From an uncultured archaeon (GTDB taxonomy: Archaea > Asgardarchaeota > Lokiarchaeia > Sigyniarchaeales > SOKP01): DNA of 64,000 nucleotides. Both the position numbers and the translations under genes were made by a program. Positions 26,393-42,778 of this stretch are shown here, in pieces (position 1 is the stretch's first letter; each line of letters starts with the position of its first letter). The stretch is from assembly GCA_964632315.1 (NCBI GenBank), contig CAZWEM010000011.1:1-64000 (forward strand). Direction: 5' to 3'. The notes beneath the pieces were generated by a model, which saw only the letters and a list, made by a program, of their open reading frames with translations, had not been told where the DNA came from and ran no database searches.

Positions 26393-28558
26393 TTAATTTG
26401 AAATTGTTATTTTAATGTCCACAGCACTATAAGAGTTAATAAAACTTAATAGTGGATTAATGTCCAGCTCCGTGATTTCAGGAAAGTCATTAACTAATTG
26501 AGACAGCCTCAATAGGACATCGATAATAGCATCGATATCTGATGGACTCTCACCGCGAACTCCTTGAAGTAAGCTAAATATTTTGGTTTTTTGGAGCATT
26601 TTCATGGCGTCATCCCGATTAAATTCATACGATAACGCAAAAGATACATCCTTTAAAAAGTTGGCGTAGATTCCTCCAGAACCAACCATCAAAAGAGGAC
26701 CAAACTGAGCATCGCGAGACATTCCTAGTATCAATTCATTAACTTTTTTTTCCTTCTTGGAGTCAATCATTTCTTGCACTTCTACCCCATATACAACGGC
26801 GTTTTGAGGACCAAAACGCTTTGAATTATCCACGATCTGAATGTAAGCCTCAAATGCTTGTTCTGGAGTCTCAACATCAAGAATTATTCCTCCTACATCC
26901 GTTTTATGTGTGATCTGAGGACTTACAATTTTCATAACAGATTTTCCAATCTCTTTTTGGATCTCCATCGCCTGTTTTGGAGTCTCTGCAAGTCTAGATT
27001 TAGGGGACTTTATCCCATAGCATTCAAAAATTTCACTTGTTTCATAGCTAAGTAAGACTTTTCGCTCATCATTCCTAGCATTTTCAAAAATCTCTTTGAC
27101 TCTTTGCTTGTTCACATCGAAATCTGGAATCTTAGGTTTCGATTGCTTTAGGGAATTTAAATAGATTCCTCGATCAATTAATCCCTTAATAGTTTTAGCA
27201 GCTTGTTCTGGGAATGAATAGCAAGGAACCCCATTCTGATTTAAATATTTTCGTGCTTTTGATACTGATTTTTCTCCCAAAAAAGCACATAAAATTGGAA
27301 CGTTTTGGAGTTTATTTTTGGTCAGATCTAAAATTAAACTAGAAACATCATCAGGATGAGTTTGAGCTTGGGGAGACATTAAGATTAATGCGCCATGAGT
27401 GGAGATATCTTCTTTATTTATTTTTGAATTATTAATGCCAAAAATGGTTTCAATTGCAAACTGATACCTTTCAGGTGGGGCATCTCCAACGATATCCACT
27501 GGATTAAATATAGCAGCTTCAGCAGGAAGGTTTTCTCTTAATTTATGAAGGATTGGTTCTGCAAATTGGGCAAATTTAATTCCCTCGCGCTCAAATGCAT
27601 CTGTTGCGACGATACCAGGACCCCCCGCATTAGTAATAATAGCAAACGAGTTTTCCTTAGGGATTGGTTGATAAAGAAATGCTTCTCCATAATCAAATAA
27701 ATCTTCGATAGTTATAGCGCGAAGCACCCCAGTTTTCTCAAATGCTAGTTGATAAGCATTATCTGAACCTGCTAAGGCACCTGTATGGCTTGAGGCTGCT
27801 CTTGCTCCAGCTTCACTCACACCCGATTTTAAGATGATGATTGGTTTTTTTTTAGTCGCGTTTTTAACATTTTTTAGGAACTTTTCACCTGCGTCAATGC
27901 TCTCTAAGTAGCAGAGTATAACTTGGGTGTCAGGATCATCTGCTAAATATTCAATGAAATCTACACCATCGAGATCTGCTTTATTACCTAAACTTATATT
28001 ACATGAAAATCCATATGGTTGTTCCATTGAATAATCCATAAATGCAGTTAGAAACGCACCTGATTGAGAGATCATTGCAATATTGCCTTTTTTAGGTGTC
28101 TCAGATGCGAATGAACCATTATAATTCAATCCGATGAATCCCAAACAATTTGGACCAATAACCCTCATGTTGTATTTTTTAGCTATTTCTACCAACTGTT
28201 CTTCCCTTTTTACCCCTTCTCCTCCAACTTCTTTAAAGCCAGCTGTAATTACTATGAGCCCCTTTATCCTCTTTTCACCGCATTGCTGAGCCACGTCATT
28301 AACAAATTTTGCGGGAATTACAAATATTGCGATATCTATTTCTTCAGGAACATCCAAAACGGTTTTATAAGCCTTAATTCCAAGAATTTTCTTTAATTGA
28401 TCTGCTTTTGGGTTAATAGGATATACTTTTCCAGAATATTCTGATTCAATGATATTTTTTAAAACATTATAACCCACTTTTCCCCGAGTAGAACTCGCTC
28501 CTATAACAGCTATAGACTTGGGGTTAAAGAAAAACGATAAGTCACTTTTTGCATGCAT
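26393..28558 (-). CDS. acdAB: ADP-forming acetate/acyl-CoA ligase, fused alpha+beta subunits
   Basis: PKSIAVIGAS, IGPNCLG, SQSGA, SHTGALAG (phospho-His), TNAGGPG, HKTDVGG, ELDINP. Confidence 0.92.
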   Translation of the reverse strand: MHAKSDLSFFFNPKSIAVIGASSTRGKVGYNVLKNIIESEYSGKVYPINPKADQLKKILGIKAYKTVLDVPEEIDIAIFVIPAKFVNDVAQQCGEKRIKGLIVITAGFKEVGGEGVKREEQLVEIAKKYNMRVIGPNCLGFIGLNYNGSFASETPKKGNIAMISQSGAFLTAFMDYSMEQPYGFSCNISLGNKADLDGVDFIEYLADDPDTQVILCYLESIDAGEKFLKNVKNATKKKPIIILKSGVSEAGARAASSHTGALAGSDNAYQLAFEKTGVLRAITIEDLFDYGEAFLYQPIPKENSFAIITNAGGPGIVATDAFEREGIKFAQFAEPILHKLRENLPAEAAIFNPVDIVGDAPPERYQFAIETIFGINNSKINKEDISTHGALILMSPQAQTHPDDVSSLILDLTKNKLQNVPILCAFLGEKSVSKARKYLNQNGVPCYSFPEQAAKTIKGLIDRGIYLNSLKQSKPKIPDFDVNKQRVKEIFENARNDERKVLLSYETSEIFECYGIKSPKSRLAETPKQAMEIQKEIGKSVMKIVSPQITHKTDVGGIILDVETPEQAFEAYIQIVDNSKRFGPQNAVVYGVEVQEMIDSKKEKKVNELILGMSRDAQFGPLLMVGSGGIYANFLKDVSFALSYEFNRDDAMKMLQKTKIFSLLQGVRGESPSDIDAIIDVLLRLSQLVNDFPEITELDINPLLSFINSYSAVDIKITISN

Positions 28559-28707
28559 CTCGAATTACTCCAGGGTTATAATCTTGTGTTTTAAAATAGA
28601 ATATAAATTTGGTTATTATTATTTGTAAAGATGAGTGATAGAAGAAGACCCAATATAAGAATTTTTTAATACATCTTTATAATTTTGTAAATGTTTTATT
28701 AATCATC

Positions 28708-29184
28708 ATGACACAAGTTTCTATCCATACGAATAAAGGAAACATCAATCTTAACTTGTTTGATGAAGACGCTCCCATGACTGTTGCGAGTTTTCTTTTT
28801 TTAATTAATAAGGGTTATTATAACGGACTGACCTTTCACAGGGTTATTGATGATTTCATGATTCAAGGGGGATGCCCAACTGGCACAGGATATCATGGTC
28901 CTCGACAAAAAGGCATCAATTCTTTCCCTTTCAGGGGAAAACAGGTTTCTTATCCATTTAAGGATGAATTTGAAAGTGGAAGATCCTTTGATAAACCAGG
29001 ACTACTTGCCATGGCGAATAGCGGATCGAATACAAACGGCTCTCAATTCTTCATTACGCATATAACAACTGACTGGTTGACTAATAAACACACTATTTTT
29101 GGCGAAGTCATTTCGCAAGAAGATCAAGATGTCGTTAATTCGATACAACAAGGAGATAAAATAATCGAGATTAAAGTATTATAA
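28708..29184 (+). CDS. Cyclophilin-type peptidyl-prolyl isomerase
   Basis: FHRVIDDFMIQGG, LAMANSG..TNGSQFFIT, WL..KHTIFG. Confidence 0.95.
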   Translation: MTQVSIHTNKGNINLNLFDEDAPMTVASFLFLINKGYYNGLTFHRVIDDFMIQGGCPTGTGYHGPRQKGINSFPFRGKQVSYPFKDEFESGRSFDKPGLLAMANSGSNTNGSQFFITHITTDWLTNKHTIFGEVISQEDQDVVNSIQQGDKIIEIKVL

Positions 29185-29257
29185 AATAGATAGAAAAAAT
29201 AACTTATTCTTTTTATTTGCTAAATTTACACAATCCCACAATTTGGGCATTTAAAGG

Positions 29258-29446
29258 TTAGTCATTCCAGTCATCGGAATTTTCCTCCCAATCATCATCG
29301 TCATCATCATCGTTCCAATCATCCCATTCACCGTCATTATAATCATCATCGTCATCACCATAATCCTCCCAGTCTTCATCGTCTTCATCGTCATCATCGT
29401 CATCATCTCTTGAGCTCATACCCTCATTTAAACCTTCACTCACCAT
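29258..29446 (-). CDS. Small hyper-acidic Asp/Trp-rich protein
   Basis: 62-aa ORF dominated by Asp/Glu with spaced Trp/Tyr; SD-like GAGGAGGT upstream; mixed GAT/GAC codons argue against a plain microsatellite. Confidence 0.7.
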   Translation of the reverse strand: MVSEGLNEGMSSRDDDDDDDEDDEDWEDYGDDDDDYNDGEWDDWNDDDDDDDWEENSDDWND

Positions 29447-29676
29447 GATGTAACCTCCTCATTTATTCAGCGATAAATTTACAACCAAGTTGCTTTTTCT
29501 ATTGAAATAAATATAAAACATATTATTAAAATTTTCGATTCAAATTGAAAGAACTTCACATCATTCGGATTCAAGTTATTATATTATAAAAGTTTATTAG
29601 AGCAAACTCTATTATTAAATAAATATTGAGAGTTTAGTCCCCTAAAGCAAAATAATGCGAAAGGAAGTGATAAAGC

Positions 29677-34623: not shown

Positions 34624-36537
34624 ATGACAGAAAATAATATATCCCCTTACCTGGATAATTTAAAGAAATATCAAAAGAAACAACTTAAACCTTATGATGC
34701 TCTAGAGAAATTTATCCAACCAGGGGATCGAATTTTTATAGATTCGGGTTGCTCTGAACCTTTAGAACTTACGAAAAGTTTGATTGATTTAGGGATTGAA
34801 TTTCAAGATACAGAGATAATTCATTTTCTTAGCCTTTCAGATCTCGATTATTATAAATATTGTTGTGGAACCGAGGACTTATATCGACATAATGTGTTTT
34901 TTATAAGTAAAAGCTTGAGAAACGCCGTGAATGAGGGATTTGCTGATTATACACCGATGCTCTTGTCTGATATTCCAACAATCTTCAAACGTGGGCAAAT
35001 GAACGTAAAAACAGCCCTGATTCAATTAAGTCCTCCCGATAAATATGGTTTTTGTAGTTATGGTATCAATGTAGATGTTGCAAAAACCATTACTGAGGTT
35101 GCGGATAATGTAATAGCTCAAATTAATCCACGAATGCCTCGTACGCTAGGCGATTCTTTCATACACATGGATAAGATTGACGCGTTTTTCGTCTCAAATC
35201 AGGAAATACAAGAATTTACTTACCCACCAGAAAGTAAAACAACTGAGGAAATATGCCAAAAAGTAAGCACTCTTATAGATGATGGTTCTACCATCCAATT
35301 AGGAATTGGGAAAGTTCCTAATGCTTTACCTAAATATTTAGAAATGAAAAAAGACTTGGGGGTACATAGTGAAGTGTTCTCAGATGGCGTGGTTGATCTC
35401 GTAGAAAAAGGAGTAATTACCTGTGAGAAAAAGAATCTCCACCAAGGTAAAATCATCACATCTTTTGTAATGGGTTCTCGTCGTCTTTATGATTTTGTAG
35501 ATGATAATCCATTCGTAGAATTTCACCCTAGCATCTATGTTAATGATCCAAATGTTATTTGTCAGAATAACAGCCAAGTTGCTGTAAACGCTGCAATTTC
35601 CGTTGACCTCACGGGACAAGTTAACGCTGATTCAATAGGGACGACTTTTTTTAGTGGAATTGGGGGTCAAGTAGATTTCATGAGAGGCGCATCCCGTTCT
35701 GTAGAGGGAAAACCAATCACGGTATTACCAAGTACGGCCACTCTTAGCAATGGTAAAGTAGTATCTAGGATTGTTCCTTATTTTGAGCATGGAACGGGAG
35801 TAGTAATAACTCGAGGGGATGTTCATTATGTTGTAACAGAATGGGGCATTGCTTATCTCTTTGGTAAGAGCATTCGAGAAAGAGTCATGCAATTAATTAA
35901 TATTGCTCACCCAGATTTTAGAGAATCCCTATTGAGATATGCTAAGAAGTGTAAATATATATATTCTGATCAATTATTACCAAAATCTGTTGATGGAAAG
36001 ATAGTTATTTATCCTGAAAAATACGAAAAAACCGTGAAATTAAAAGATGGAAAAGTAGTCAAAATACGACCTATTCGTACCACTGATGAAAGAATGCTTC
36101 AAGAATTATACTATTCCATGGACGAGGAAGATAGATATCTCAGATTTTTCTCAACCAGCATGGAATTTGGTCATAAAAGAATTCAACCATTAGTAAATAT
36201 AGATTATACTAAAAATATGATTTTAGTCGCAGAGGATATTGAAAATGAGCCACCAAAAATAATTGCATCTAGCGGTCTCTTAAAATCCAATGAACCTTTT
36301 TCGGCAGAAATGGCTATAGTGGTACACAAGAAATGGCGTAAAAGAGGGATAGGAATAGAATTATTAGAAATGTTATTAGATATCGCAAAGGAATTTAAAT
36401 ACAAATTCCTCTCAGGATCGATTCTGATTGAAAATGAACCGATGATTCACATTCTTAACGAAACGGACATACCTGTCAAATATAAACGGATTGAAAATGG
36501 AGTTCTGGAGTTTTCTTATGATATCACAACGTATTAA
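34624..36537 (+). CDS. Acetyl-CoA hydrolase/CoA-transferase fused to a C-terminal GNAT domain
   Basis: IQLGIG, HSEVFSDG, SGIGGQVDFMRGA, VVTEWGIA; C-terminal IRPI...RYLRFF...WRKRGIG. Confidence 0.9.
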   Translation: MTENNISPYLDNLKKYQKKQLKPYDALEKFIQPGDRIFIDSGCSEPLELTKSLIDLGIEFQDTEIIHFLSLSDLDYYKYCCGTEDLYRHNVFFISKSLRNAVNEGFADYTPMLLSDIPTIFKRGQMNVKTALIQLSPPDKYGFCSYGINVDVAKTITEVADNVIAQINPRMPRTLGDSFIHMDKIDAFFVSNQEIQEFTYPPESKTTEEICQKVSTLIDDGSTIQLGIGKVPNALPKYLEMKKDLGVHSEVFSDGVVDLVEKGVITCEKKNLHQGKIITSFVMGSRRLYDFVDDNPFVEFHPSIYVNDPNVICQNNSQVAVNAAISVDLTGQVNADSIGTTFFSGIGGQVDFMRGASRSVEGKPITVLPSTATLSNGKVVSRIVPYFEHGTGVVITRGDVHYVVTEWGIAYLFGKSIRERVMQLINIAHPDFRESLLRYAKKCKYIYSDQLLPKSVDGKIVIYPEKYEKTVKLKDGKVVKIRPIRTTDERMLQELYYSMDEEDRYLRFFSTSMEFGHKRIQPLVNIDYTKNMILVAEDIENEPPKIIASSGLLKSNEPFSAEMAIVVHKKWRKRGIGIELLEMLLDIAKEFKYKFLSGSILIENEPMIHILNETDIPVKYKRIENGVLEFSYDITTY

Positions 36538-36580
36538 AAGATAATAGTAAAATAAAAAAAAATAAATAAATAGTTTTAAT

Positions 36581-37453
36581 TTAAAGATTCTCTATAACTG
36601 TTCCTCGTCGAGTTCGATGGAATTTCAGTCCAATTTCATCAGCACTGTAACCCATTGCCAAAGCAAGTAATTCCGTTACATATAAGATGGGAATACTATA
36701 CAATTGTTTCAAAGTTTTCTGTGTAAGTTGTTCAGAGTCCATTCTTTGAAAACATGCGGGACAATTAACAACTATACAATTAGCACCAGCTTTTTTAATT
36801 GAGTCTAATTTCTTATTTAAAATCGCATCTCCATGCTCTGGATATGCCCCAGCAACAGCATTTCCACAACATAATGCTAATTCATCATAATCAACTACAC
36901 TCGCTCCCGAAGCTTCAACTAGTTTTTTTAGGGTTGTAGGTCTCATCGGATCATCCGATTCCATCCATTCAGCAGGTCTCATGTAATGACATCCAGGATG
37001 GCATGCGACTTTTAACCCAGTAAGAGGTTTTGTCACTGCAGCCTTTACTTTATCGATGTTTTCTTTCAAAACATCAACAAAATGCCTTACATCAATTGTG
37101 CCCTTATACTCCTTTCCAATTTTGGATAATTCAGCATTCACCTTTTCCTTTTTCAAATTATCATGCTTTAATTGGTATCGAACACCTCGAAGCGTGTTAG
37201 TACAGCCATTACATAGGGAAATAATATCTTTCCCTTCGGCTTCTGCTAAGCATAAGTTCATCGCTCCGAGCGTTAACCAAGCGTCGTTATCAAAGCTTTT
37301 CATTCCTGTAGGATCGGGGCAACAACTGAAAGGTGCGTCTGACGTTTCAATATTCACCTTCTCAAAAACTTTTCTGGAGGCAGCTTCAATAAAGGGAATC
37401 CTATTCCCGATAGTACATCCTTCAAACATTTTATATTCTGTCATTTTTATCAT
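36581..37453 (-). CDS. hdrB: Heterodisulfide reductase subunit B
   Basis: Two CCG domains: GC..SCCP..CNGC and HPGCH..CCG..CPAC. Confidence 0.92.
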   Translation of the reverse strand: MIKMTEYKMFEGCTIGNRIPFIEAASRKVFEKVNIETSDAPFSCCPDPTGMKSFDNDAWLTLGAMNLCLAEAEGKDIISLCNGCTNTLRGVRYQLKHDNLKKEKVNAELSKIGKEYKGTIDVRHFVDVLKENIDKVKAAVTKPLTGLKVACHPGCHYMRPAEWMESDDPMRPTTLKKLVEASGASVVDYDELALCCGNAVAGAYPEHGDAILNKKLDSIKKAGANCIVVNCPACFQRMDSEQLTQKTLKQLYSIPILYVTELLALAMGYSADEIGLKFHRTRRGTVIENL

Positions 37454-37460
37454 TTCCTCC

Positions 37461-37973
37461 TTACTTTAGTTTTTTATCTGCACCAATTGCCTTTAGTAAA
37501 GATTGTACATCTTCGAGATTTGGCGCTTCCACTGCTGGTAATCCTAATTGCTCTCTCCTTCTCTCAATTGCTGGTTGAGAAGGGATAGCTTTAGCACTAT
37601 CAAATATCGCTTGAGCTTGACCATAAATACTATCCGGTGCTTTTCCTAGTTTAGTTGATTCGTTCTTTAAAAAGGTAAAAATCTCGGTTAGTTCGATATT
37701 CTGTGGACATAATTCATCACATGTATCGCATACAGTACAGCCCCAAATCGTTAAGGGATCGGCATCGAATATGGCGTCTTTATACCCTAATAATGCATTT
37801 AAAATATTAGACCTTGGATTATAGCCTGTGGTAGTGTAAAAATCCATCGAGACAGCGGCTACTGGACAGTTATCCGTGCACCTACTACATTGGTAGCAGT
37901 ATTTAATCACATCGTGCACGTGAAAGTCCATGACCTGCTTTCGAAATTCGAAATCTATAGACATTTTTTTCAC
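37461..37973 (-). CDS. hdrC: Heterodisulfide reductase subunit C
   Basis: CYQCSRCTDNCP and WGCTVCDTCDELCPQ 2x[4Fe-4S]; adjacent to hdrB. Confidence 0.92.
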   Translation of the reverse strand: MKKMSIDFEFRKQVMDFHVHDVIKYCYQCSRCTDNCPVAAVSMDFYTTTGYNPRSNILNALLGYKDAIFDADPLTIWGCTVCDTCDELCPQNIELTEIFTFLKNESTKLGKAPDSIYGQAQAIFDSAKAIPSQPAIERRREQLGLPAVEAPNLEDVQSLLKAIGADKKLK

Positions 37974-38012
37974 ACTTTTTTTTGATTTTTTTCCAATTTA
38001 TTTCATATTTTT

Positions 38013-38084
38013 ATTGGCTTTTACCTTGCAAGGTTAGTCATGACCAGTCTCGTTTTTTTACTGGTTCATTCATCCTAAGCCAAC
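38013..38084 (-). promoter_or_regulatory. Eukaryote-like SECIS element of vhuU
   Basis: mRNA GG-AUGA-AUGAACCAGU-AAAAAAACGAG-ACUGGUCAU-GA-CU: AUGA/GA core, 9-bp helix II with one bulge, apical adenosines; basal GUUGGCUU/AAGCCAAU helix. Confidence 0.8.
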
Positions 38085-38222
38085 ATTCAGCTTGCGGGAA
38101 TATATCTCCTCGCCGTCCTCTTTGGTCACGGTAATGTGGGCGGCACACGATAGTCAGCAATCAAAACATCTGACTACCATTTCGAGGAGGTTTACCATTC
38201 CCTCCGGTATTTCTTCACTCAC
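38070..38222 (-). CDS. vhuU: Selenoprotein VhuU (separately encoded C-terminal Ni-binding peptide of the hydrogenase large subunit); Sec UGA at 38156-38154
   Basis: Manual translation GTG..TGA: MSEEIPEGMVNLLEMVVRCFDC-U-LSCAAHITVTKEDGEEIYSRKLNVGLG; supplies the L2 motif missing from the upstream large subunit; SECIS follows. Confidence 0.92.
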
Positions 38223-38256
38223 TTTTTCTTCACGTTTTAAATTTTTTGAATTAGGT

Positions 38257-39564
38257 TTATTTAATCCAAGGATCGGGTAACTTTAATCCTTCCAACGCCT
38301 TATCTTCAAACACTTGTTTAGCAACGTGCATTAAGGTTTTTTCAATGCCCGCAATGTTATGATTGGTCGCTACCAAGAGATTTGCCTTCTTGCAGATTCC
38401 ATCATTGTCGGACCAAATGTTATAGAGTAAAAGACCTCGAGGAGCCTCTGTGACTCCTACACCTTGTCCTTCTCTTGGTTCAACATCTAATGTCTTACAA
38501 TCAGGGTTAACGATATCAGGATCTTGCAATAAAGTAGCGATTACCTCAATTGATTCAACCAATTCGATTAATCGGGCCCAATGATACGCAAAAGTATGGT
38601 GAATTACATCAGTTCCAACTTTTGCTCTCATTGCCTTTAATGCCTCATCTGCTAATGGAGTCGCCATTTTGTCAGCACAATTTAACATTGCTAATGTATT
38701 TGCACGATAAATTCCCTCTGGATAGCCTGCGGGTTTGTAATACATATGCGTTGCATAACTGTGGGGTGGAATGTGTTCTCCTAATGCGTCAAGGTAATTC
38801 TGTGGAGCATAATCAATCTTTTTACCGTCTGGAGTGACGATTCGGATGTCTCCATCATAAATATCATGAACTCCATTCTTAGTCATTCCCACATAATAAG
38901 TGGGAACAACTCCTACGTTTGCTACGACATCCCAATAATCTTCGACTACCTTTAACCCAATCTCGACAGTCTTTTTTGACCATTCAACCTGATCTTCAAT
39001 CTGTTTCAGAAATTTATCTCGAGCATCTTCATCCATCGGTTTTTTCATCCCGCCAACGATTGCACTAATGGGATGGACCGATTTACCGCCAATTTCAGCA
39101 CATAGCTTCTGCCCGAAGTCCATCATTTTCAGAGCCATTGCTCCGACATCAGGCATTTTATTAATAACGTGCACCACATTCCTTAAAGCTGGATCCGCAA
39201 ACGGGCCCAACAAAAAGTCGGGTGCCGCTAATGCGTAAAAGTGAAGCGCGTGCGATGAATATTGTTTCGCATTTTGTAAAAGTTGTCGTAACTTATATGC
39301 TGGTTCGGGTATCTCGACCTTCCATGCATCTTCTACAGCCTTAGTAGGCGTTAGATGATGAGGAATAGGACAAATACCGCAAATTCTTGGCGTGATTCTA
39401 GGGATGTGCTCACAATAACGACCTTCCACAAACTTTTCGAAAAATCGGGTAGATTGAATGTTGAATTGAACGTCCTTTACCGTACCATCATCACCTAGAG
39501 TTAAATGGAGAGCACCATGGCCTTCCAATCTAGTGACTGGTTCAACTTCTATTTCTTTTACCAT
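38257..39564 (-). CDS. vhuA: Group 3c [NiFe(Se)] hydrogenase large subunit, lacking C-terminal L2 motif
   Basis: PVTRLEGHG, PRICGICPIPHH (L1), HFYALAAPDF, EAPRG; ends without DPCxxC. Confidence 0.93.
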   Translation of the reverse strand: MVKEIEVEPVTRLEGHGALHLTLGDDGTVKDVQFNIQSTRFFEKFVEGRYCEHIPRITPRICGICPIPHHLTPTKAVEDAWKVEIPEPAYKLRQLLQNAKQYSSHALHFYALAAPDFLLGPFADPALRNVVHVINKMPDVGAMALKMMDFGQKLCAEIGGKSVHPISAIVGGMKKPMDEDARDKFLKQIEDQVEWSKKTVEIGLKVVEDYWDVVANVGVVPTYYVGMTKNGVHDIYDGDIRIVTPDGKKIDYAPQNYLDALGEHIPPHSYATHMYYKPAGYPEGIYRANTLAMLNCADKMATPLADEALKAMRAKVGTDVIHHTFAYHWARLIELVESIEVIATLLQDPDIVNPDCKTLDVEPREGQGVGVTEAPRGLLLYNIWSDNDGICKKANLLVATNHNIAGIEKTLMHVAKQVFEDKALEGLKLPDPWIK

Positions 39565-39575
39565 ATTTTTTTCAC

Positions 39576-40952
39576 CTACCTGTAATTTTTATTGGCGGCT
39601 AACGTGAACTTTTCGGAAAAGCCTAACTTATCTTTCATCTGAGAAAGCAATTCTTCTTTTGATAAAGCCACGTTAAAGCCCTTAGTCGCTACTTCCGCAA
39701 ATCTCTCAGCTTGGTTAACGTTCCATTCAGTCTGACCATAACAACCAGAACATGGGGCGTTAACTCTTATACATAGCCCGCCGCAGCCTGCTCTCGTGAT
39801 GGGACCTGCACATAGATACCCTTGTTCTATGAAGCAATCTTCCATGTTGGGGAGTCCTTCATAATCTCTCTTGACTCGTGTCATGGTTGATTTACTTCCA
39901 ATGATTCTAGGACAGGTATCACAAACAGTACTGATTTCGGTGAAATCTCGATGATCTCTGAGGTATGACATAATAGTTGAAGCTACTTGTTCCGTTTCTG
40001 AAGGCAAGTTCGCTAATGGTGTTTGGGGAGTACCTTTTTTCTTAACTTGTTTTAAGATATCACCCGCCAAATCGAACCCAGCCATCAGGGGAACGTTTAA
40101 GAATAGAGCTAAGAATTCGTATAAGTTCTTCTTGTCTCCTGAACTTAATGAATCCGCATTTTTAACCATATCTGTAAGTTTTCCAACACGGGCATCAACG
40201 GCTTTGCTTGGACCAAAACATCCTACACAGGGTTTTCCGTCACTAGTACATTTTAACGAACATCCAGCACTGGTGATAGGACCAAAACAAAGAACACCTT
40301 TTTCTAACACGCAACCACTGTCCCTTAGCACGCATTCACTACAGAATGGTGCATCTGCCATTGGTTGAGGTTTTTGACCGAGTAAGAATTGCACTGCTGA
40401 AATGATTTGTTCGGGTTTAGGCGGACACCCGGCAATATACGCATCGACCTTAATAACTTCATCTAAAGGTACGATCTTGCTTGTAAATCCAGGCATGTGT
40501 ACAGTAGGTTCTTTTGGACTCTCATTGGTAATCGATTCTGCTTGAGTAAATTTTCTATCGATTGCCTCTTGAATATCCCACTGATTTGCCAAACCATGAA
40601 CGTTTCCATAGCACGAGCATGAACCAAAGGCAATGATTAATTGGCATTTTTCACGCATTAATTTAGCTTGCTCAAGATCCTTATTCGTTCTTAAACTGCC
40701 TTCTACGAATCCAACGAGTACATCTCCATCAGGTCTTGCTTTCAGAGAATCTTCCTTGAAATCAACAACTGCGGGCCAATATACAATATCTAATGCAGGG
40801 AGCACCGGTAATAAGCCTAAATCTATGCTTGACTAGCGAAATGGAATCAATGTGCATTTAATAGGCTTTGGTGGCAACCCCAACATATCTGTAAGCAAAG
40901 GAAACCTTCACATTAAATCAGAGTTTTGCATAAATGCCACTTTAATAGCCAT
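39576..40952 (-). CDS. vhuG: Group 3c hydrogenase small subunit, spliced: exons 40952-40917, 40885-40852, 40822-39576 (438 aa), with duplicated C-terminal Fe-S module
   Basis: ORF-track protein (from 40805) lacks the N-terminal CxxC; removing two inserts gives MAIKVAFMQNSDCWGCHQSLLNAHLGLLPVLPALDIVYWP; VEGS, AFGSC, GCPP motifs follow. Confidence 0.9.
40823..40851 (-). other. BHB mRNA intron 2 of vhuG (29 nt)
   Basis: AUUGAUUCCAUUUCGCUAGUCAAGCAUAG; helix AUGC/GCAU, bulges ACA and AGA, inner stem UUGAUU/AGUCAA, outer AA/UU and AAGCCUA/UAGGCUU. Confidence 0.88.
40886..40916 (-). other. BHB mRNA intron 1 of vhuG (31 nt)
   Basis: UUAAUGUGAAGGUUUCCUUUGCUUACAGAUA; helix UCUG/CAGA, bulges AUU and UAU, 10-bp inner stem, outer AAC/GUU. 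Confidence 0.9.
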
Positions 40953-41497
40953 TTTTCATCAATTTTTTTGTTTTTGTTTGTTTTTTATTTTAATTGGCTA
41001 ATTTGTGTTGTGAAATTAGTTATGAACTTTAAATCATAATCTAATAAAAAATGTTCTATTTTCTTTTTATTGGCTTTTCTTTAAGTATACTATCCAGTCT
41101 GTATATTGAATAAGCATTCATAATTGTTAGATAGAATTGTCAAATCAATTAGTCATGCGAATAATTTTGAATGAGTATTCACGAGATGAGGATGGTTTAA
41201 GATTTTAGATTTTACAAGAACTCTTATTTGAATGATATCATATTGATAATTTTTTATAAAAATCTCTGCTTAGAGAGAGTTTTTTGGTTAAAATACTTGT
41301 TAAAAACCATTAATTGCAAAATAAATTTATACTAATAAGTGAGAAAAGTAGTACATGAAGATTAAAGAGCAAATTTTTCCCTAAAAACTAACCATTCTCA
41401 TCTGCTTTTCTTATCCAAATTCATGAATTCATGAATATTATAAGTGTTTAAATTTAATATTACTATTCAGTCCCTAAAGATTGATCATTCTCGAAGA

Positions 41498-42778
41498 TTA
41501 AATGTTAATACTGTTAATCGAGTGATCCAAGTAATTATGATCGACTGATAAAAAATTGATGTTTTTCATGGAATCGAACGTAATTGGTAAAACTTTTAGT
41601 TTGTTGTGGTTAAGATTCAGATATCTTAAGTTAAATAGAGAGCATATTCCACATGGAATCACGGATAAGTTATTTTGTTCTAAGTTGAGATATTCCAGGT
41701 TCCTGAGATTTGAAATGAACTTTGGAAGTTTATACAAGCTAGTACATTTTAGATTTAACGATTTTAGCGAACTAAGATACTTCAAGCAATTCTTAAGAGA
41801 GATTACTTTAATGTTTTCAAAATTAAGGCTTATCACCTCTCCTTTGCATAATTCGTATTTTAGAGATGGATAACATTTTATTAAATAATTAATGACGAGG
41901 GAATTGAGTAAAAAATCGCCTAATTTCGAACTGGATTGGAATTCAAAATCGAGATGGTATAAACGATTAATAGGTAATGCATGTGATATCCATCGAATTG
42001 CAGGAAAGAAAAGTGACTTGGAAATTTCAGGTGTAAAATTTTTGATAGTTTGGATTAATTCGAGTTGGCATCTAAGATTATAATCATTAGTAAAGGACCA
42101 TTTAAGTGGAAATAATTTTAGTTCCTTTAATTTCCTTAAATGCTTGATTCCGTGAATTTCTGAAAGATCTTTGATTGCTTCTCTGTCTTTCCAGGTAAGA
42201 ATTTTATTATTTATGCGTGAGAAGTCTAATTTTCTTACTAAACCATCCTCAATTTCGTACTGTAATAACGGGAATTTCCTTATTAAATAACTCACCGTGA
42301 ACAAGTTGATTAAAATAGCTAATAAATCAGTAACACTTGGATTCTTGCGTACTATGTCAGAAATCTGAGCATCATTTAACAACTCAACTTTCTTTAGATA
42401 TGAGATCAACTTTCCCTTCGCATTATCATTAGTTAGATCATGTAATGAGTTCAAAATTGTGATGATACAATTAAAAGAATTTTCTTGACTAATTGCCCAC
42501 AATAATGGAGCTGCTGCTTTGTCTGAAAACCTCTCCTTGATAACTGAAACAGCCTCTTTTCGAATTATATCATTAGGATCAGAAACAATGAGATTCTCTA
42601 AGATTTCAAATAAGTTGTCATCTTTCCCATCAATATTCTCCAGTACATGAATACAACTTGTACGAATTTTTTCATCGTCCACGTTTTCCAATAGAATGGA
42701 TATCAGGCTAATTGCATTAGACTTACTTATCGTGTTATTTACAAAATTCTGGTAAATTTTAGTAGGAGAACTCGTCAT
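41498..42778 (-). CDS. HEAT-repeat + leucine-rich-repeat protein
   Basis: LENLIVSDPNDIIRKEAV; C-terminal LEYLNLEQNNLSVIP, LRYLNLNHNKLKVLP. Confidence 0.85.
   Translation of the reverse strand: MTSSPTKIYQNFVNNTISKSNAISLISILLENVDDEKIRTSCIHVLENIDGKDDNLFEILENLIVSDPNDIIRKEAVSVIKERFSDKAAAPLLWAISQENSFNCIITILNSLHDLTNDNAKGKLISYLKKVELLNDAQISDIVRKNPSVTDLLAILINLFTVSYLIRKFPLLQYEIEDGLVRKLDFSRINNKILTWKDREAIKDLSEIHGIKHLRKLKELKLFPLKWSFTNDYNLRCQLELIQTIKNFTPEISKSLFFPAIRWISHALPINRLYHLDFEFQSSSKLGDFLLNSLVINYLIKCYPSLKYELCKGEVISLNFENIKVISLKNCLKYLSSLKSLNLKCTSLYKLPKFISNLRNLEYLNLEQNNLSVIPCGICSLFNLRYLNLNHNKLKVLPITFDSMKNINFLSVDHNYLDHSINSINI

What the first reader, a model, noticed from the sequence alone, without database searches (positions are those of the whole stretch)
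36581..40952. Hydrogenase gene cluster that appears to need tRNA-type mRNA splicing twice, plus Sec recoding
Seen: the first gene (vhuG) is broken by two BHB-forming inserts that bracket a 34-nt micro-exon (40885-40852) encoding CWGCHQSLLNA, the proximal [4Fe-4S] CxxC ligands. The unspliced mRNA stops after MAIKVAFMQNSDLM. Removing only intron 1 stops right after ...LLNAH. Both excisions are needed for the 438-aa subunit. Two genes downstream, vhuU needs UGA-to-Sec recoding through a eukaryote-like SECIS. Established: BHB motifs are cut by the archaeal splicing endonuclease EndA and joined by RtcB; the archaeal mRNA example I know is cbf5 in Crenarchaeota. Inference: this is a multi-intron, micro-exon mRNA in a central energy-metabolism gene of an Asgard-type archaeon, which would tie hydrogenase expression to EndA activity and possibly act as a regulatory gate. 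Standard gene callers would report a truncated vhuG and miss it. Novelty needs a literature check.
Basis: partly seen in the sequence, partly recalled or inferred. Interest (0 to 1): 0.96.

Follow-up and report, generated by a model that had tools for sequence, protein, structure and literature searches.

The report
Two tRNA-type introns split hydrogenase gene
In this Loki-type Asgard archaeon, the start of a hydrogenase small-subunit gene is broken by two tiny inserts shaped like tRNA introns; the gene reads correctly only if both are cut out of the mRNA, a kind of splicing that the papers I could search report inside only one archaeal coding gene (cbf5).

Summary
On the minus strand, a 36-nt exon 1 (40952-40917), a 31-nt insert, a 34-nt micro-exon (40885-40852), a 29-nt insert and exon 3 (from 40822) together encode a 438-aa VhuG/MvhG-type small subunit.

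- **Structure:** both inserts form bulge-helix-bulge (BHB) motifs. Cutting at the canonical bulge positions gives MAIKVAFMQNSD-CWGCHQSLLNA-HLGLL.
- **Comparison:** about 50 intron-less orthologues in Promethearchaeota MAGs encode the same N-terminus apart from residues 2-3. So do two JGI contigs of the same species.
- **Other species:** some carry only the site-1 insert (31 nt) or only a site-2 insert (28-30 nt). Seven of 16 pairs in the intron-1 structure covary.
- **Selection:** exon 3 is under strong purifying selection.
- **Machinery:** the genome encodes two EndA-family proteins and RtcB.
- **Other genes:** the only uS8 match, the only full bacterial-type LeuRS match and an EF-2 paralogue carry similar inserts.

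Splicing itself is not shown, because no RNA contig covers the site. The "regulatory gate" idea has no support.

The vhuU Sec codon and its SECIS match Mariotti et al. 2016 and are already known.

This scan had noted BHB mRNA introns before on other DNA, in Jordarchaeia and in this vhuG site 1 of a related Loki genome. I found no publication reporting them in Asgard archaea.

The parts
40917..40952 (-). vhuG exon 1: 12 codons, MAIKVAFMQNSD, ATG at 40952. Its last 7 nt supply h (AAC) and H (UCUG) of the intron-1 BHB.
   Evidence: The same peptide starts the intron-less orthologues.
40886..40916 (-). Intron 1: 31 nt, canonical hBHBh'. It carries an in-frame TGA and shifts the frame by +1.
   Evidence: A 31-nt insert sits at the same site in four related genomes, and 7 of 16 pairs covary. 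It is absent exactly at this junction in about 50 orthologues and in L117/L118.
40852..40885 (-). Micro-exon: 34 nt, encoding CWGCHQSLLNA plus the first base of the His codon. It holds the N-terminal CxxC of the proximal [4Fe-4S] site.
   Evidence: In an intron-less orthologue it aligns with CSGCHISLLD of MvhG 5ODC chain E.
40823..40851 (-). Intron 2: 29 nt, BHB with H AUGC/GCAU, 3-nt bulges and a 6-bp inner stem. The outer helix is 2 bp plus a 7-bp exon-exon helix. It carries an in-frame TGA in the frame left after removing intron 1.
   Evidence: Inserts of 28-30 nt sit at the same site in L060, L013/L058 and L016/L061.
39576..40822 (-). vhuG exon 3: 414 codons plus the stop. It has the Oxidored_q6 domain and Fe-S Cys clusters, and a ~130-aa insert relative to MvhG.
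   Evidence: dN about 0.11-0.13 against saturated dS versus the nearest species.
38257..39564 (-). vhuA: [NiFe] hydrogenase large subunit without the C-terminal Ni-ligand motif, 435 aa.
   Evidence: NF041785 VhuA, 471 bits, covering 3-417 of 418 profile positions, below the 800-bit cut-off; PF00374 also matches.
38070..38198 (-). vhuU: 42 codons, with the Sec codon TGA at 38156-38154 in D-C-U-L-S-C-A-A-H. Its stop, TGA 38072-38070, is part of the SECIS AUGA.
   Evidence: The TGA is conserved in 50 of 50 orthologous loci. SepSecS and tRNA-Sec are in the genome.
38038..38073 (-). lokiSECIS: AUGA, a 9-bp stem with one bulged A, an 11-nt loop AAAAAAACGAG, then GA. It is closed by an outer helix, 38085-38077 with 38020-38012.
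   Evidence: Fold z = -3.97. It matches the published description feature by feature (PMC4989117). Related elements with compensated stems occur in 39 orthologues.
37461..37973 (-). HdrC-like 4Fe-4S dicluster protein, 170 aa.
   Evidence: TIGR03290 and Fer4_8.
36581..37453 (-). HdrB-like protein with two CCG domains, 290 aa.
   Evidence: TIGR03288, 254 bits, and PF02754.

Best explanation
The vhuG gene of this Lokiarchaeial (Promethearchaeota) genome carries two archaeal bulge-helix-bulge introns (31 and 29 nt) in its first 130 nt, separated by a 34-nt micro-exon.

Inferred mechanism:
1. The pre-mRNA folds so that each exon-intron boundary lies in a 3-nt bulge on either side of a 4-bp helix.
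2. The two-subunit EndA endonuclease cuts after the second bulge nucleotide at all four sites.
3. RtcB joins the exons and circularises the introns.
4. Only the doubly spliced mRNA encodes the 438-aa small subunit with its proximal-cluster CxxC.

The introns look like dispensable, fast-evolving elements. Each is present or absent among species of one genus and even within this species. They belong to a genome-wide class that also interrupts housekeeping genes. They do not look like a hydrogenase-specific switch.

Downstream, vhuU is read through UGA as selenocysteine using the published lokiSECIS.

Shown here: the anatomy, the exact junctions, the covariation, the selection on the exons and the presence of the enzymes. 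Inferred: the cleavage and ligation themselves.
For: 1. **Geometry.** Both inserts have two 3-nt bulges 4 bp apart with flanking helices. The canonical cuts restore the frame and the motif CWGCH.
2. **Junctions.** 45 of 65 orthologous loci matched my intron-less pattern. Eight more, which missed it only through N-terminal variants, also read through. All read ...SD|CWGCHQSLLNA|HLGLL at the predicted joins.
3. **Specificity.** Among all splice choices that restore the protein, only one per intron has the canonical geometry: L050 and L060 with H 4/4, L058 and L061 with H 3/4.
4. **Covariation in intron 1.** Across five genomes, 93.8% of cells pair against 36-55% in slid controls. Seven of 16 pairs change on both sides, and 0 of 500 shuffles reach this. 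The changed pairs include an H pair and an h pair that involve synonymous exon changes.
5. **Selection.** Exon 3 has 414 intact codons, dN 0.11-0.13 and saturated dS, giving dN/dS of about 0.05-0.07 where computable. The intron-1 clade holds four species.
6. **Same-species allele.** JGI contigs L117 and L118 are 97-100% identical in the flanks, lack both inserts exactly, and encode MVKVAFMQNSDCWGCHQSLLNAHLGLLP....
7. **Machinery.** One EndA-family protein best matches the B chains of the crenarchaeal EndA entries 3P1Z/3AJV, which I take to be the catalytic subunit. A second EndA paralogue and RtcB are also present. Asgard EndA is reported as the (alpha-beta)2 type with the L1 loop (PMC5829648).
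8. **Other genes in the same genome.** The only uS8 match (29 nt), the only LeuRS match over the leuS_bact cut-off (30 nt, canonical BHB, joining PMGYD|SFGLPAEN) and an EF-2 paralogue (30 nt) are interrupted the same way.
Against: - No RNA evidence. Contigs of three metatranscriptome runs and of one run guessed to be DNA were laid, and none covers 40800-41100.
- The window-type allele was not found in JGI metagenome contigs, so it is known only from this assembly.
- MFE folds of the short AT-rich segments are no more stable than shuffles.
- The outer helix next to intron 2 is only 2 bp before a bulge.
- Because an intron-less allele and three weaker matches to the subunit, one of them a full-length paralogue, exist, a null allele could be tolerated.
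- My genome-wide BHB-plus-ORF-fusion scan showed only a weak excess over decoys: 27 against 12 and 16.
Confidence: 0.86

Rival explanations
1. The window allele is a null allele or pseudogene. Two insertions broke the 5' end, and hydrogenase function comes from paralogues or, in the population, from the intron-less allele.
For: An intron-less allele exists in the same species. The genome has three weaker matches to the small subunit. No spliced RNA was seen.
Against: - Random insertions would not place canonical BHB cut sites exactly at the ortholog-defined junctions twice.
- Exon 1 and the micro-exon keep the conserved peptide.
- The site-1 insert persists in four further species with compensatory changes and strong purifying selection on the gene.
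- The only uS8 match and the only full leuS_bact match in the same genome carry the same kind of insert.
Confidence: 0.06
2. The inserts stay in the mRNA, and translation starts downstream (GTG 40805). This would give a 409-aa subunit without the N-terminal CxxC.
For: An ORF with a GTG start exists. This is what gene callers would report.
Against: The CxxC aligns with the conserved CSGC at the N-terminus of MvhG and is invariant in every orthologue read. Exon 1, its SD-like GATGA and the micro-exon would then have no reason to stay intact.
Confidence: 0.03
3. Assembly artefact or chimera: the 190-nt patch with both inserts was mis-joined from another organism.
For: The patch differs from the same-species contigs at 22 of 70 exon bases, against about 2% in the flanks, and is nearer to another clade. 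There is no independent contig of this allele. The run X1 contigs stop at 40661.
Against: Even a chimeric patch is real DNA of some Loki strain with both inserts. Inserts at both sites occur in independent MAGs. The flanks join the patch seamlessly.
Confidence: 0.03
4. The inserts are skipped by another route: ribosomal bypassing (T4 gene 60 type), or DNA excision before expression.
For: Each insert has a hairpin, and a stop lies soon after the break.
Against: There are no matching take-off and landing codons in the right frame, and two consecutive hops would be needed. No direct repeats flank the inserts. Rfam finds no ribozyme or intron family.
Confidence: 0.02

Closest known systems
BHB intron in the cbf5 pre-mRNA of Crenarchaeota (Watanabe 2002; Yoshinari 2006; Yokobori 2009, PMC2738675)
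   Same: A short BHB intron lies inside a protein-coding sequence in an archaeon with a hetero-oligomeric EndA. It shows lineage-specific presence and absence, and gene callers miss it.
   Different: Here there are two introns in one gene with a 34-nt micro-exon, in an Asgard (Lokiarchaeial) genome and in an energy-metabolism gene. The introns are polymorphic within a genus and within a species, and are one case among several in the same genome. Splicing has been shown for cbf5 but not here.
BHB intron in the 5' UTR of HVO_1309 mRNA, Haloferax volcanii (PMC7714728)
   Same: An mRNA substrate of the tRNA splicing endonuclease.
   Different: That intron is in the untranslated leader, is a single intron, and was verified in vivo and in vitro. 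Here the introns interrupt codons.
Non-canonical and multiple tRNA introns of Asgard and TACK archaea (PMC5829648; bioRxiv 10.64898/2026.10.13.758758; the 31-nt tRNA-Sec intron of Loki in PMC4989117)
   Same: The same motif, the same size class (about 30 nt), the same presumed enzymes, and repeated gain and loss.
   Different: The host RNA is an mRNA without a tRNA body to hold the exons. Only short exon-exon helices can do that here.
Lokiarchaeota VhuU selenoprotein with lokiSECIS (Mariotti et al. 2016, PMC4989117)
   Same: AUGA that doubles as the vhuU stop codon, a 9-bp stem, an 11-nt A-rich loop ending in G, and Sec at the Ni-ligand position.
   Different: Nothing material: the element ends in GA where the paper reports AA for VhuU. 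This part is already known.

Membership tests
Archaeal BHB (endonuclease-spliced) intron | Two 3-nt bulges on opposite strands separated by a 4-bp helix | tested here: met
   Intron 1: UCUG/CAGA with bulges AUU and UAU. Intron 2: AUGC/GCAU with bulges ACA and AGA.
Archaeal BHB (endonuclease-spliced) intron | Flanking helices h (exon-exon) and h' (within the intron) | tested here: met
   Intron 1: h 3 bp, h' 3+7 bp. Intron 2: h 2 bp then 7 bp after a 2-nt bulge, h' 6 bp.
Archaeal BHB (endonuclease-spliced) intron | Cutting after the second bulge nucleotide gives the functional RNA | tested here: met
   The product reads like the intron-less orthologues and the same-species allele at both junctions.
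Archaeal BHB (endonuclease-spliced) intron | Structure maintained by compensatory change | tested here: met
   Intron 1: 7 of 16 pairs changed on both sides, and 0 of 500 shuffles reach this. Intron 2 was judged by eye only, on three lineages.
Archaeal BHB (endonuclease-spliced) intron | EndA and RtcB encoded by the host | tested here: met
   Two EndA-family genes and one RtcB gene.
Archaeal BHB (endonuclease-spliced) intron | Spliced RNA, circular intron, or in-vitro cleavage observed | tested here: inconclusive
   No laid RNA contig covers the site. The one loose end belongs to the intron-less allele.
MvhG/VhuG small subunit of F420-non-reducing [NiFe] hydrogenase | Oxidored_q6 domain with the N-terminal CxxC, and similarity to solved MvhG | tested here: met
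   PF01058. 5ODC_E at E 1.4e-49, aligned from residue 3.
MvhG/VhuG small subunit of F420-non-reducing [NiFe] hydrogenase | Reaches the NCBIfam VhuG cut-off | tested here: not met
   NF045875 scores 203.8 bits against a cut-off of 450, and there is a ~130-aa insert. This is a relative of VhuG, not an equivalog.
lokiSECIS-dependent VhuU selenoprotein | In-frame UGA at the Ni-ligand Cys; AUGA, 9-bp stem, 11-nt A-rich loop ending in G, then GA/AA; Sec machinery present | tested here: met
   No Rfam SECIS family matched.
Group I or group II self-splicing intron | Ribozyme core of hundreds of nucleotides | tested here: not met
   The inserts are 29-31 nt, and there is no Rfam match at E <= 1.
Programmed translational bypass (T4 gene 60 type) | Matching take-off and landing codons with a stop directly after take-off | tested here: not met
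   The GAU near the 3' end of insert 1 would land out of frame, and no stop follows the take-off codon.

The most novel reading that the evidence does not exclude
Lokiarchaeia routinely splice messenger RNAs with the tRNA-splicing enzymes.
- Genes can carry several ~30-nt introns and micro-exons.
- Introns are gained and lost quickly enough to be polymorphic within a species.
- They spread or disappear by short homologous-recombination patches.
- They tend to land where the mRNA already has an exon hairpin that can serve as the outer BHB helix.

This would be a second, protein-enzyme-based route to split genes in the closest archaeal relatives of eukaryotes.
Probability: 0.55. Interest if true: 0.9.

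Novelty: new variant of a known kind. Interest (0 to 1): 0.85.

Why it matters
**Published state.** The papers I could search report endonuclease-type introns inside only one archaeal coding gene, cbf5 of Crenarchaeota. As late as 2020 a review-level statement says so (PMC7714728).

**What is new here.** A gene of central hydrogen metabolism in an Asgard archaeon needs two such excisions around a 34-nt micro-exon. The only uS8 match and the only full bacterial-type LeuRS match in the same genome are interrupted the same way.

**Consequences if confirmed:**
1. Gene callers systematically truncate or split genes in these genomes. This distorts metabolic reconstructions of Asgard archaea, including claims about hydrogenases.
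2. It gives a tractable natural system for intron gain and loss, with present/absent alleles in one species that differ by a 70-nt exon patch.
3. It shows that split protein genes, multi-intron genes and micro-exons exist in the lineage nearest to eukaryotes, by a mechanism unrelated to the spliceosome.

Tried and rejected
- **RNA and DNA runs.** Contigs of three metatranscriptome runs and of one run guessed to be DNA were laid, and none covers 40800-41100. The X14 contig's loose end behind 40796 matches the intron-less allele (L118 type), so it says nothing about splicing.
- **JGI metagenome contigs.** Exact searches for the intron-1 hairpin and for the window-type micro-exon found nothing.
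- **Genome-wide scan.** I combined a strict BHB search with an ORF-fusion test. The background from ordinary gene junctions is high: 2493 hits against 2395 and 2548 decoys. There is only a weak excess for inner stems of 6 bp or more and lengths of 25-36 nt: 27 against 12 and 16. Of those 27, only LeuRS is clearly real by eye. The strict rule (h of 2 bp or more, H 4/4) also misses real relaxed cases such as uS8 and EF-2.
- **Folding energies.** They are not significant for these short AT-rich segments.
- **Rfam.** No family matched in 36000-41500.
- **GAPDH.** TIGR01546 found nothing, so I could not check the earlier GAPDH note.
- **Mobility.** Neither intron has another copy in the genome.
- **Rejected readings.** Bypassing, DNA excision, downstream initiation and a plain pseudogene; see the rival explanations.

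Full report
**1. What is in the sequence**

On the minus strand an ATG at 40952 opens MAIKVAFMQNSD, and the unspliced frame then runs on as LM before a TGA. A long ORF (39576-40805 as listed) lacks the N-terminus that the Pfam Oxidored_q6 profile expects: its match starts only at profile position 35.

Between the two lie, in order:
- a 31-nt insert (40916-40886);
- a 34-nt stretch that encodes CWGCHQSLLNA in a third frame (40885-40852);
- a 29-nt insert (40851-40823).

Joining 40917|40885 and 40852|40822 gives 36 + 34 + 1244 nt, which is 438 codons.

**2. Geometry**

Read on the fold and recovered by my own scan:
- Intron 1 is AAC[UCUG]AU|U-UAA-U-GUGAAGG-UUU-CCUUUGC-UUA-[CAGA]UA|U-GUU. That is a 3-bp outer helix, a 4-bp central helix, two 3-nt bulges and a 3+7-bp inner stem.
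- Intron 2 is AA[AUGC]AC|A-UUGAUU-(10 nt)-AGUCAA-[GCAU]AG|A-UU. After a 2-nt bulge, the exon-exon helix AAGCCUA/UAGGCUU follows.

The two motifs use different ends of the micro-exon, so both can form at once.

Loose BHB pairing is frequent by chance in this AT-rich DNA, and the folding energies are not significant. Structure alone proves nothing here.

**3. The decisive comparison**

- *Same genus.* Orthologues (72-85% amino-acid identity) from 29 genomes of the same genus were fetched and read.
- *Wider survey.* A survey of GTDB species representatives gave 65 readable loci, nearly all titled Promethearchaeota or Promethearchaeia MAGs.
- *Intron-less majority.* 45 loci matched my intron-less pattern. 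Eight more failed it only because of N-terminal variants, and they also read through. All read M(A)VKVAFMQxSD|CWGCHQSLLNxH|LGLL, with the joins exactly where the canonical cuts fall.
- *Site 1.* Four species (L006-L009; L050, L051 and L103 are the same genomes) carry a 31-nt insert at site 1 only.
- *Site 2.* L013/L058 and L016/L061 carry a 30-nt insert at site 2, with H 3 of 4. L060 carries a 28-nt one with H 4 of 4.
- *Both sites.* Only the window genome has both.
- *Specificity.* I enumerated every splice choice that restores the protein. Exactly one per intron has the BHB geometry.
- *Covariation.* For intron 1, five sequences give 93.8% paired cells against 36-55% in slid controls. Seven of 16 pairs changed on both sides, and 0 of 500 shuffles reach this. 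The changed pairs include U-A to C-G in H, coupled to a synonymous TCT to TCC change in exon 1. They also include A-U to G-C in h, coupled to a TGT to TGC change in the micro-exon.

**4. The gene is alive**

Exon 3 has no stop in 414 codons. Against the nearest species dN is 0.11-0.13 while dS is saturated, giving dN/dS of about 0.05-0.07 where it can be computed.

An intron-less orthologue aligns with MvhG of the solved Hdr-Mvh complex (5ODC_E, E 1.4e-49) from residue 3. This places CWGCH on CSGCH, the N-terminal CxxC. From general knowledge of [NiFe] hydrogenase small subunits, that motif ligates the proximal cluster.

**5. A same-species intron-less allele**

A protein search found P0001 and P0002, which are 98 and 97% identical and 437 aa long. 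Their JGI contigs, L117 and L118, are 97-100% identical to the window for 330 nt upstream and for most of the gene. They lack both inserts exactly.

The difference is confined to a patch. Counts are differing bases per bases compared:

| Segment | Window vs L117 | Window vs L050 (site-1 clade) |
|---|---|---|
| Exon 1 | 2 of 36 | 8 of 36 |
| Micro-exon | 10 of 34 | 5 of 34 |
| Exon 3, nt 1-36 | 12 of 36 | 3 of 36 |
| Exon 3, nt 37-150 | 2 of 114 | 25 of 114 |

Only one amino acid changes in the patch. Within the patch the window allele is nearer to the site-1 clade (8 of 70) than its flanks are (25 of 114). That hints that the intron-bearing patch moved by homologous recombination. The numbers are small, so this is an inference.

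On the protein tree the window groups with two intron-less species, and that trio is sister to the site-1 clade (99/97). Site 1 therefore needs either one gain plus one loss or two gains. Site 2 occurs in distant branches.

**6. Machinery and context**

- G000 encodes two EndA-family proteins. One best matches the B chains of the crenarchaeal EndA entries 3P1Z/3AJV, which I take to be the catalytic subunit. RtcB is also present.
- Asgard EndA has been described as the (alpha-beta)2 type with the L1 loop that gives broad specificity (PMC5829648).
- ARAGORN finds only 29 tRNAs in a 99.5%-complete genome, 18 of them with introns. This fits the heavy tRNA intron load reported for Asgard archaea.
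- Prompted by earlier notes of this scan, I read three other genes myself.
  - The only uS8 match is split by a 29-nt stop-bearing insert whose removal gives YIGE|FERYDDGR.
  - An EF-2 paralogue has a 30-nt insert, [TCAG]AU|U...[CUGA]AA|G.
  - The only LeuRS match over the leuS_bact cut-off (979 bits) has a single TAA inside. That TAA lies in a canonical 30-nt BHB insert, which joins PMGYD|SFGLPAEN.
- Genes of this kind cannot all be pseudogenes, so this organism very probably removes such inserts from mRNA.

**7. Selenocysteine**

- vhuU (38198-38070) has TGA at the Ni-ligand position.
- Its stop UGA is part of an AUGA. A 9-bp stem follows, then the loop AAAAAAACGAG, then GA (z = -3.97).
- This matches the lokiSECIS of Mariotti et al. 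2016 feature by feature, including the AUGA that doubles as the stop codon.
- SepSecS and tRNA-Sec are present.
- The TGA is conserved in 50 of 50 orthologous loci.
- This part is correct and already known.

**8. What is not shown**

No RNA contig covers the site, and the window-type allele was not found in other assemblies. Cleavage, ligation, their efficiency, and how splicing competes with coupled translation all remain inferred.

The 'regulatory gate' is speculation. The scattered hosts and the presence/absence pattern argue for dispensable elements.

**9. Novelty**

Eight full-text searches found BHB introns in coding sequence only for cbf5, plus a 5'-UTR case in Haloferax (PMC7714728). 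None found any for Asgard mRNAs.

This scan had already noted such introns on other DNA: several Jordarchaeia genes, and site 1 of vhuG in a related Loki genome (e1-5561513; a first-reader note e1-5572680).

New here are:
- the double intron with a micro-exon;
- the within-genus and within-species polymorphism with a recombination patch;
- the covariation test.

Noticed in passing
G000 contig C35:14462-14490 (-), outside the window: The only uS8 (Ribosomal_S8) match in the genome is split by a 29-nt insert with stops. It has a relaxed BHB, [GGCG]AA|A..9-bp hairpin..[CGCA]AU|U. Removing it gives YIGE|FERYDDGR.
   Followed up: partly
G000 contig C41:26254-26283 (-), outside the window: The bacterial-type LeuRS (979 bits to leuS_bact) has a single in-frame TAA. 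It lies in a 30-nt canonical BHB insert (h 4, H 4/4, inner stem 7 bp) that joins PMGYD|SFGLPAEN.
   Followed up: partly
G000 contig C25, within 27349-29523 (-), outside the window: An EF-2 paralogue has a 30-nt insert with TAA before EQERGIT. The motif is [TCAG]AU|U..5-bp stem..[CUGA]AA|G, with an outer helix of only 1 bp.
   Followed up: partly
L117 and L118 (JGI 3300056879 and 3300057026) versus window 40750-40960: A same-species intron-less allele. The difference is confined to a 70-nt exon patch (22 of 70 bases, one amino acid) bounded by the intron-1 site. The window patch is nearer to the site-1 clade than its flanks are, which suggests introns move by short recombination tracts.
   Followed up: partly
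window 40862-40868 with 40813-40819 (-), and the same codons in 58 orthologues: The Gln-Ser-Leu codons and the Leu-Gly-Leu codons are complementary over 6-7 bp in 51 of 58 orthologues, with or without intron 2. Several compensated versions occur (CAATCCT/AGGATTG, AAGCCTA/TAGGCTT, AGTCCC/GGGACT, AGAGCT/AGCTCT). The mean stem is 6.5 bp against 4.8 bp for synonymous resampling. The intron-2 site lies in the loop, and the stem serves as the outer BHB helix.
   Followed up: partly
L073, L095, L096, L110 (about 40 nt after codon 3-4); L097 (31 nt, 6 nt upstream of site 1); L100: Further inserts lie in the first 75 nt of vhuG in other Promethearchaeota MAGs, at other positions. My rules find no canonical BHB in them. 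This suggests a 5'-end hot spot, or relaxed motifs.
   Followed up: partly
window about 41010-41045 (-), and the same place in orthologues: A conserved inverted repeat, CTAATTT..(4-10 nt)..AAATTAG, lies 60-90 nt upstream of the vhuG start in most orthologues. It could be a regulator binding site.
   Followed up: no
window 39576-40822 (-), residues about 190-323 of the 438-aa protein: The small subunit has a Cys-rich insert of about 130 aa relative to MvhG (5ODC_E). It falls below the NCBIfam VhuG cut-off.
   Followed up: no
window 38154-38162 (-), and 50 orthologous loci: The VhuU metal-site motif reads D-C-U-x-x-C-x-x-H. A Cys takes the place of the usual Pro before Sec, and this is conserved in all orthologues read.
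   Followed up: no
G000, whole genome: ARAGORN detects only 29 tRNA genes in a 99.5%-complete genome, 18 of them with introns. Many tRNA genes are therefore probably interrupted beyond recognition.
   Followed up: no
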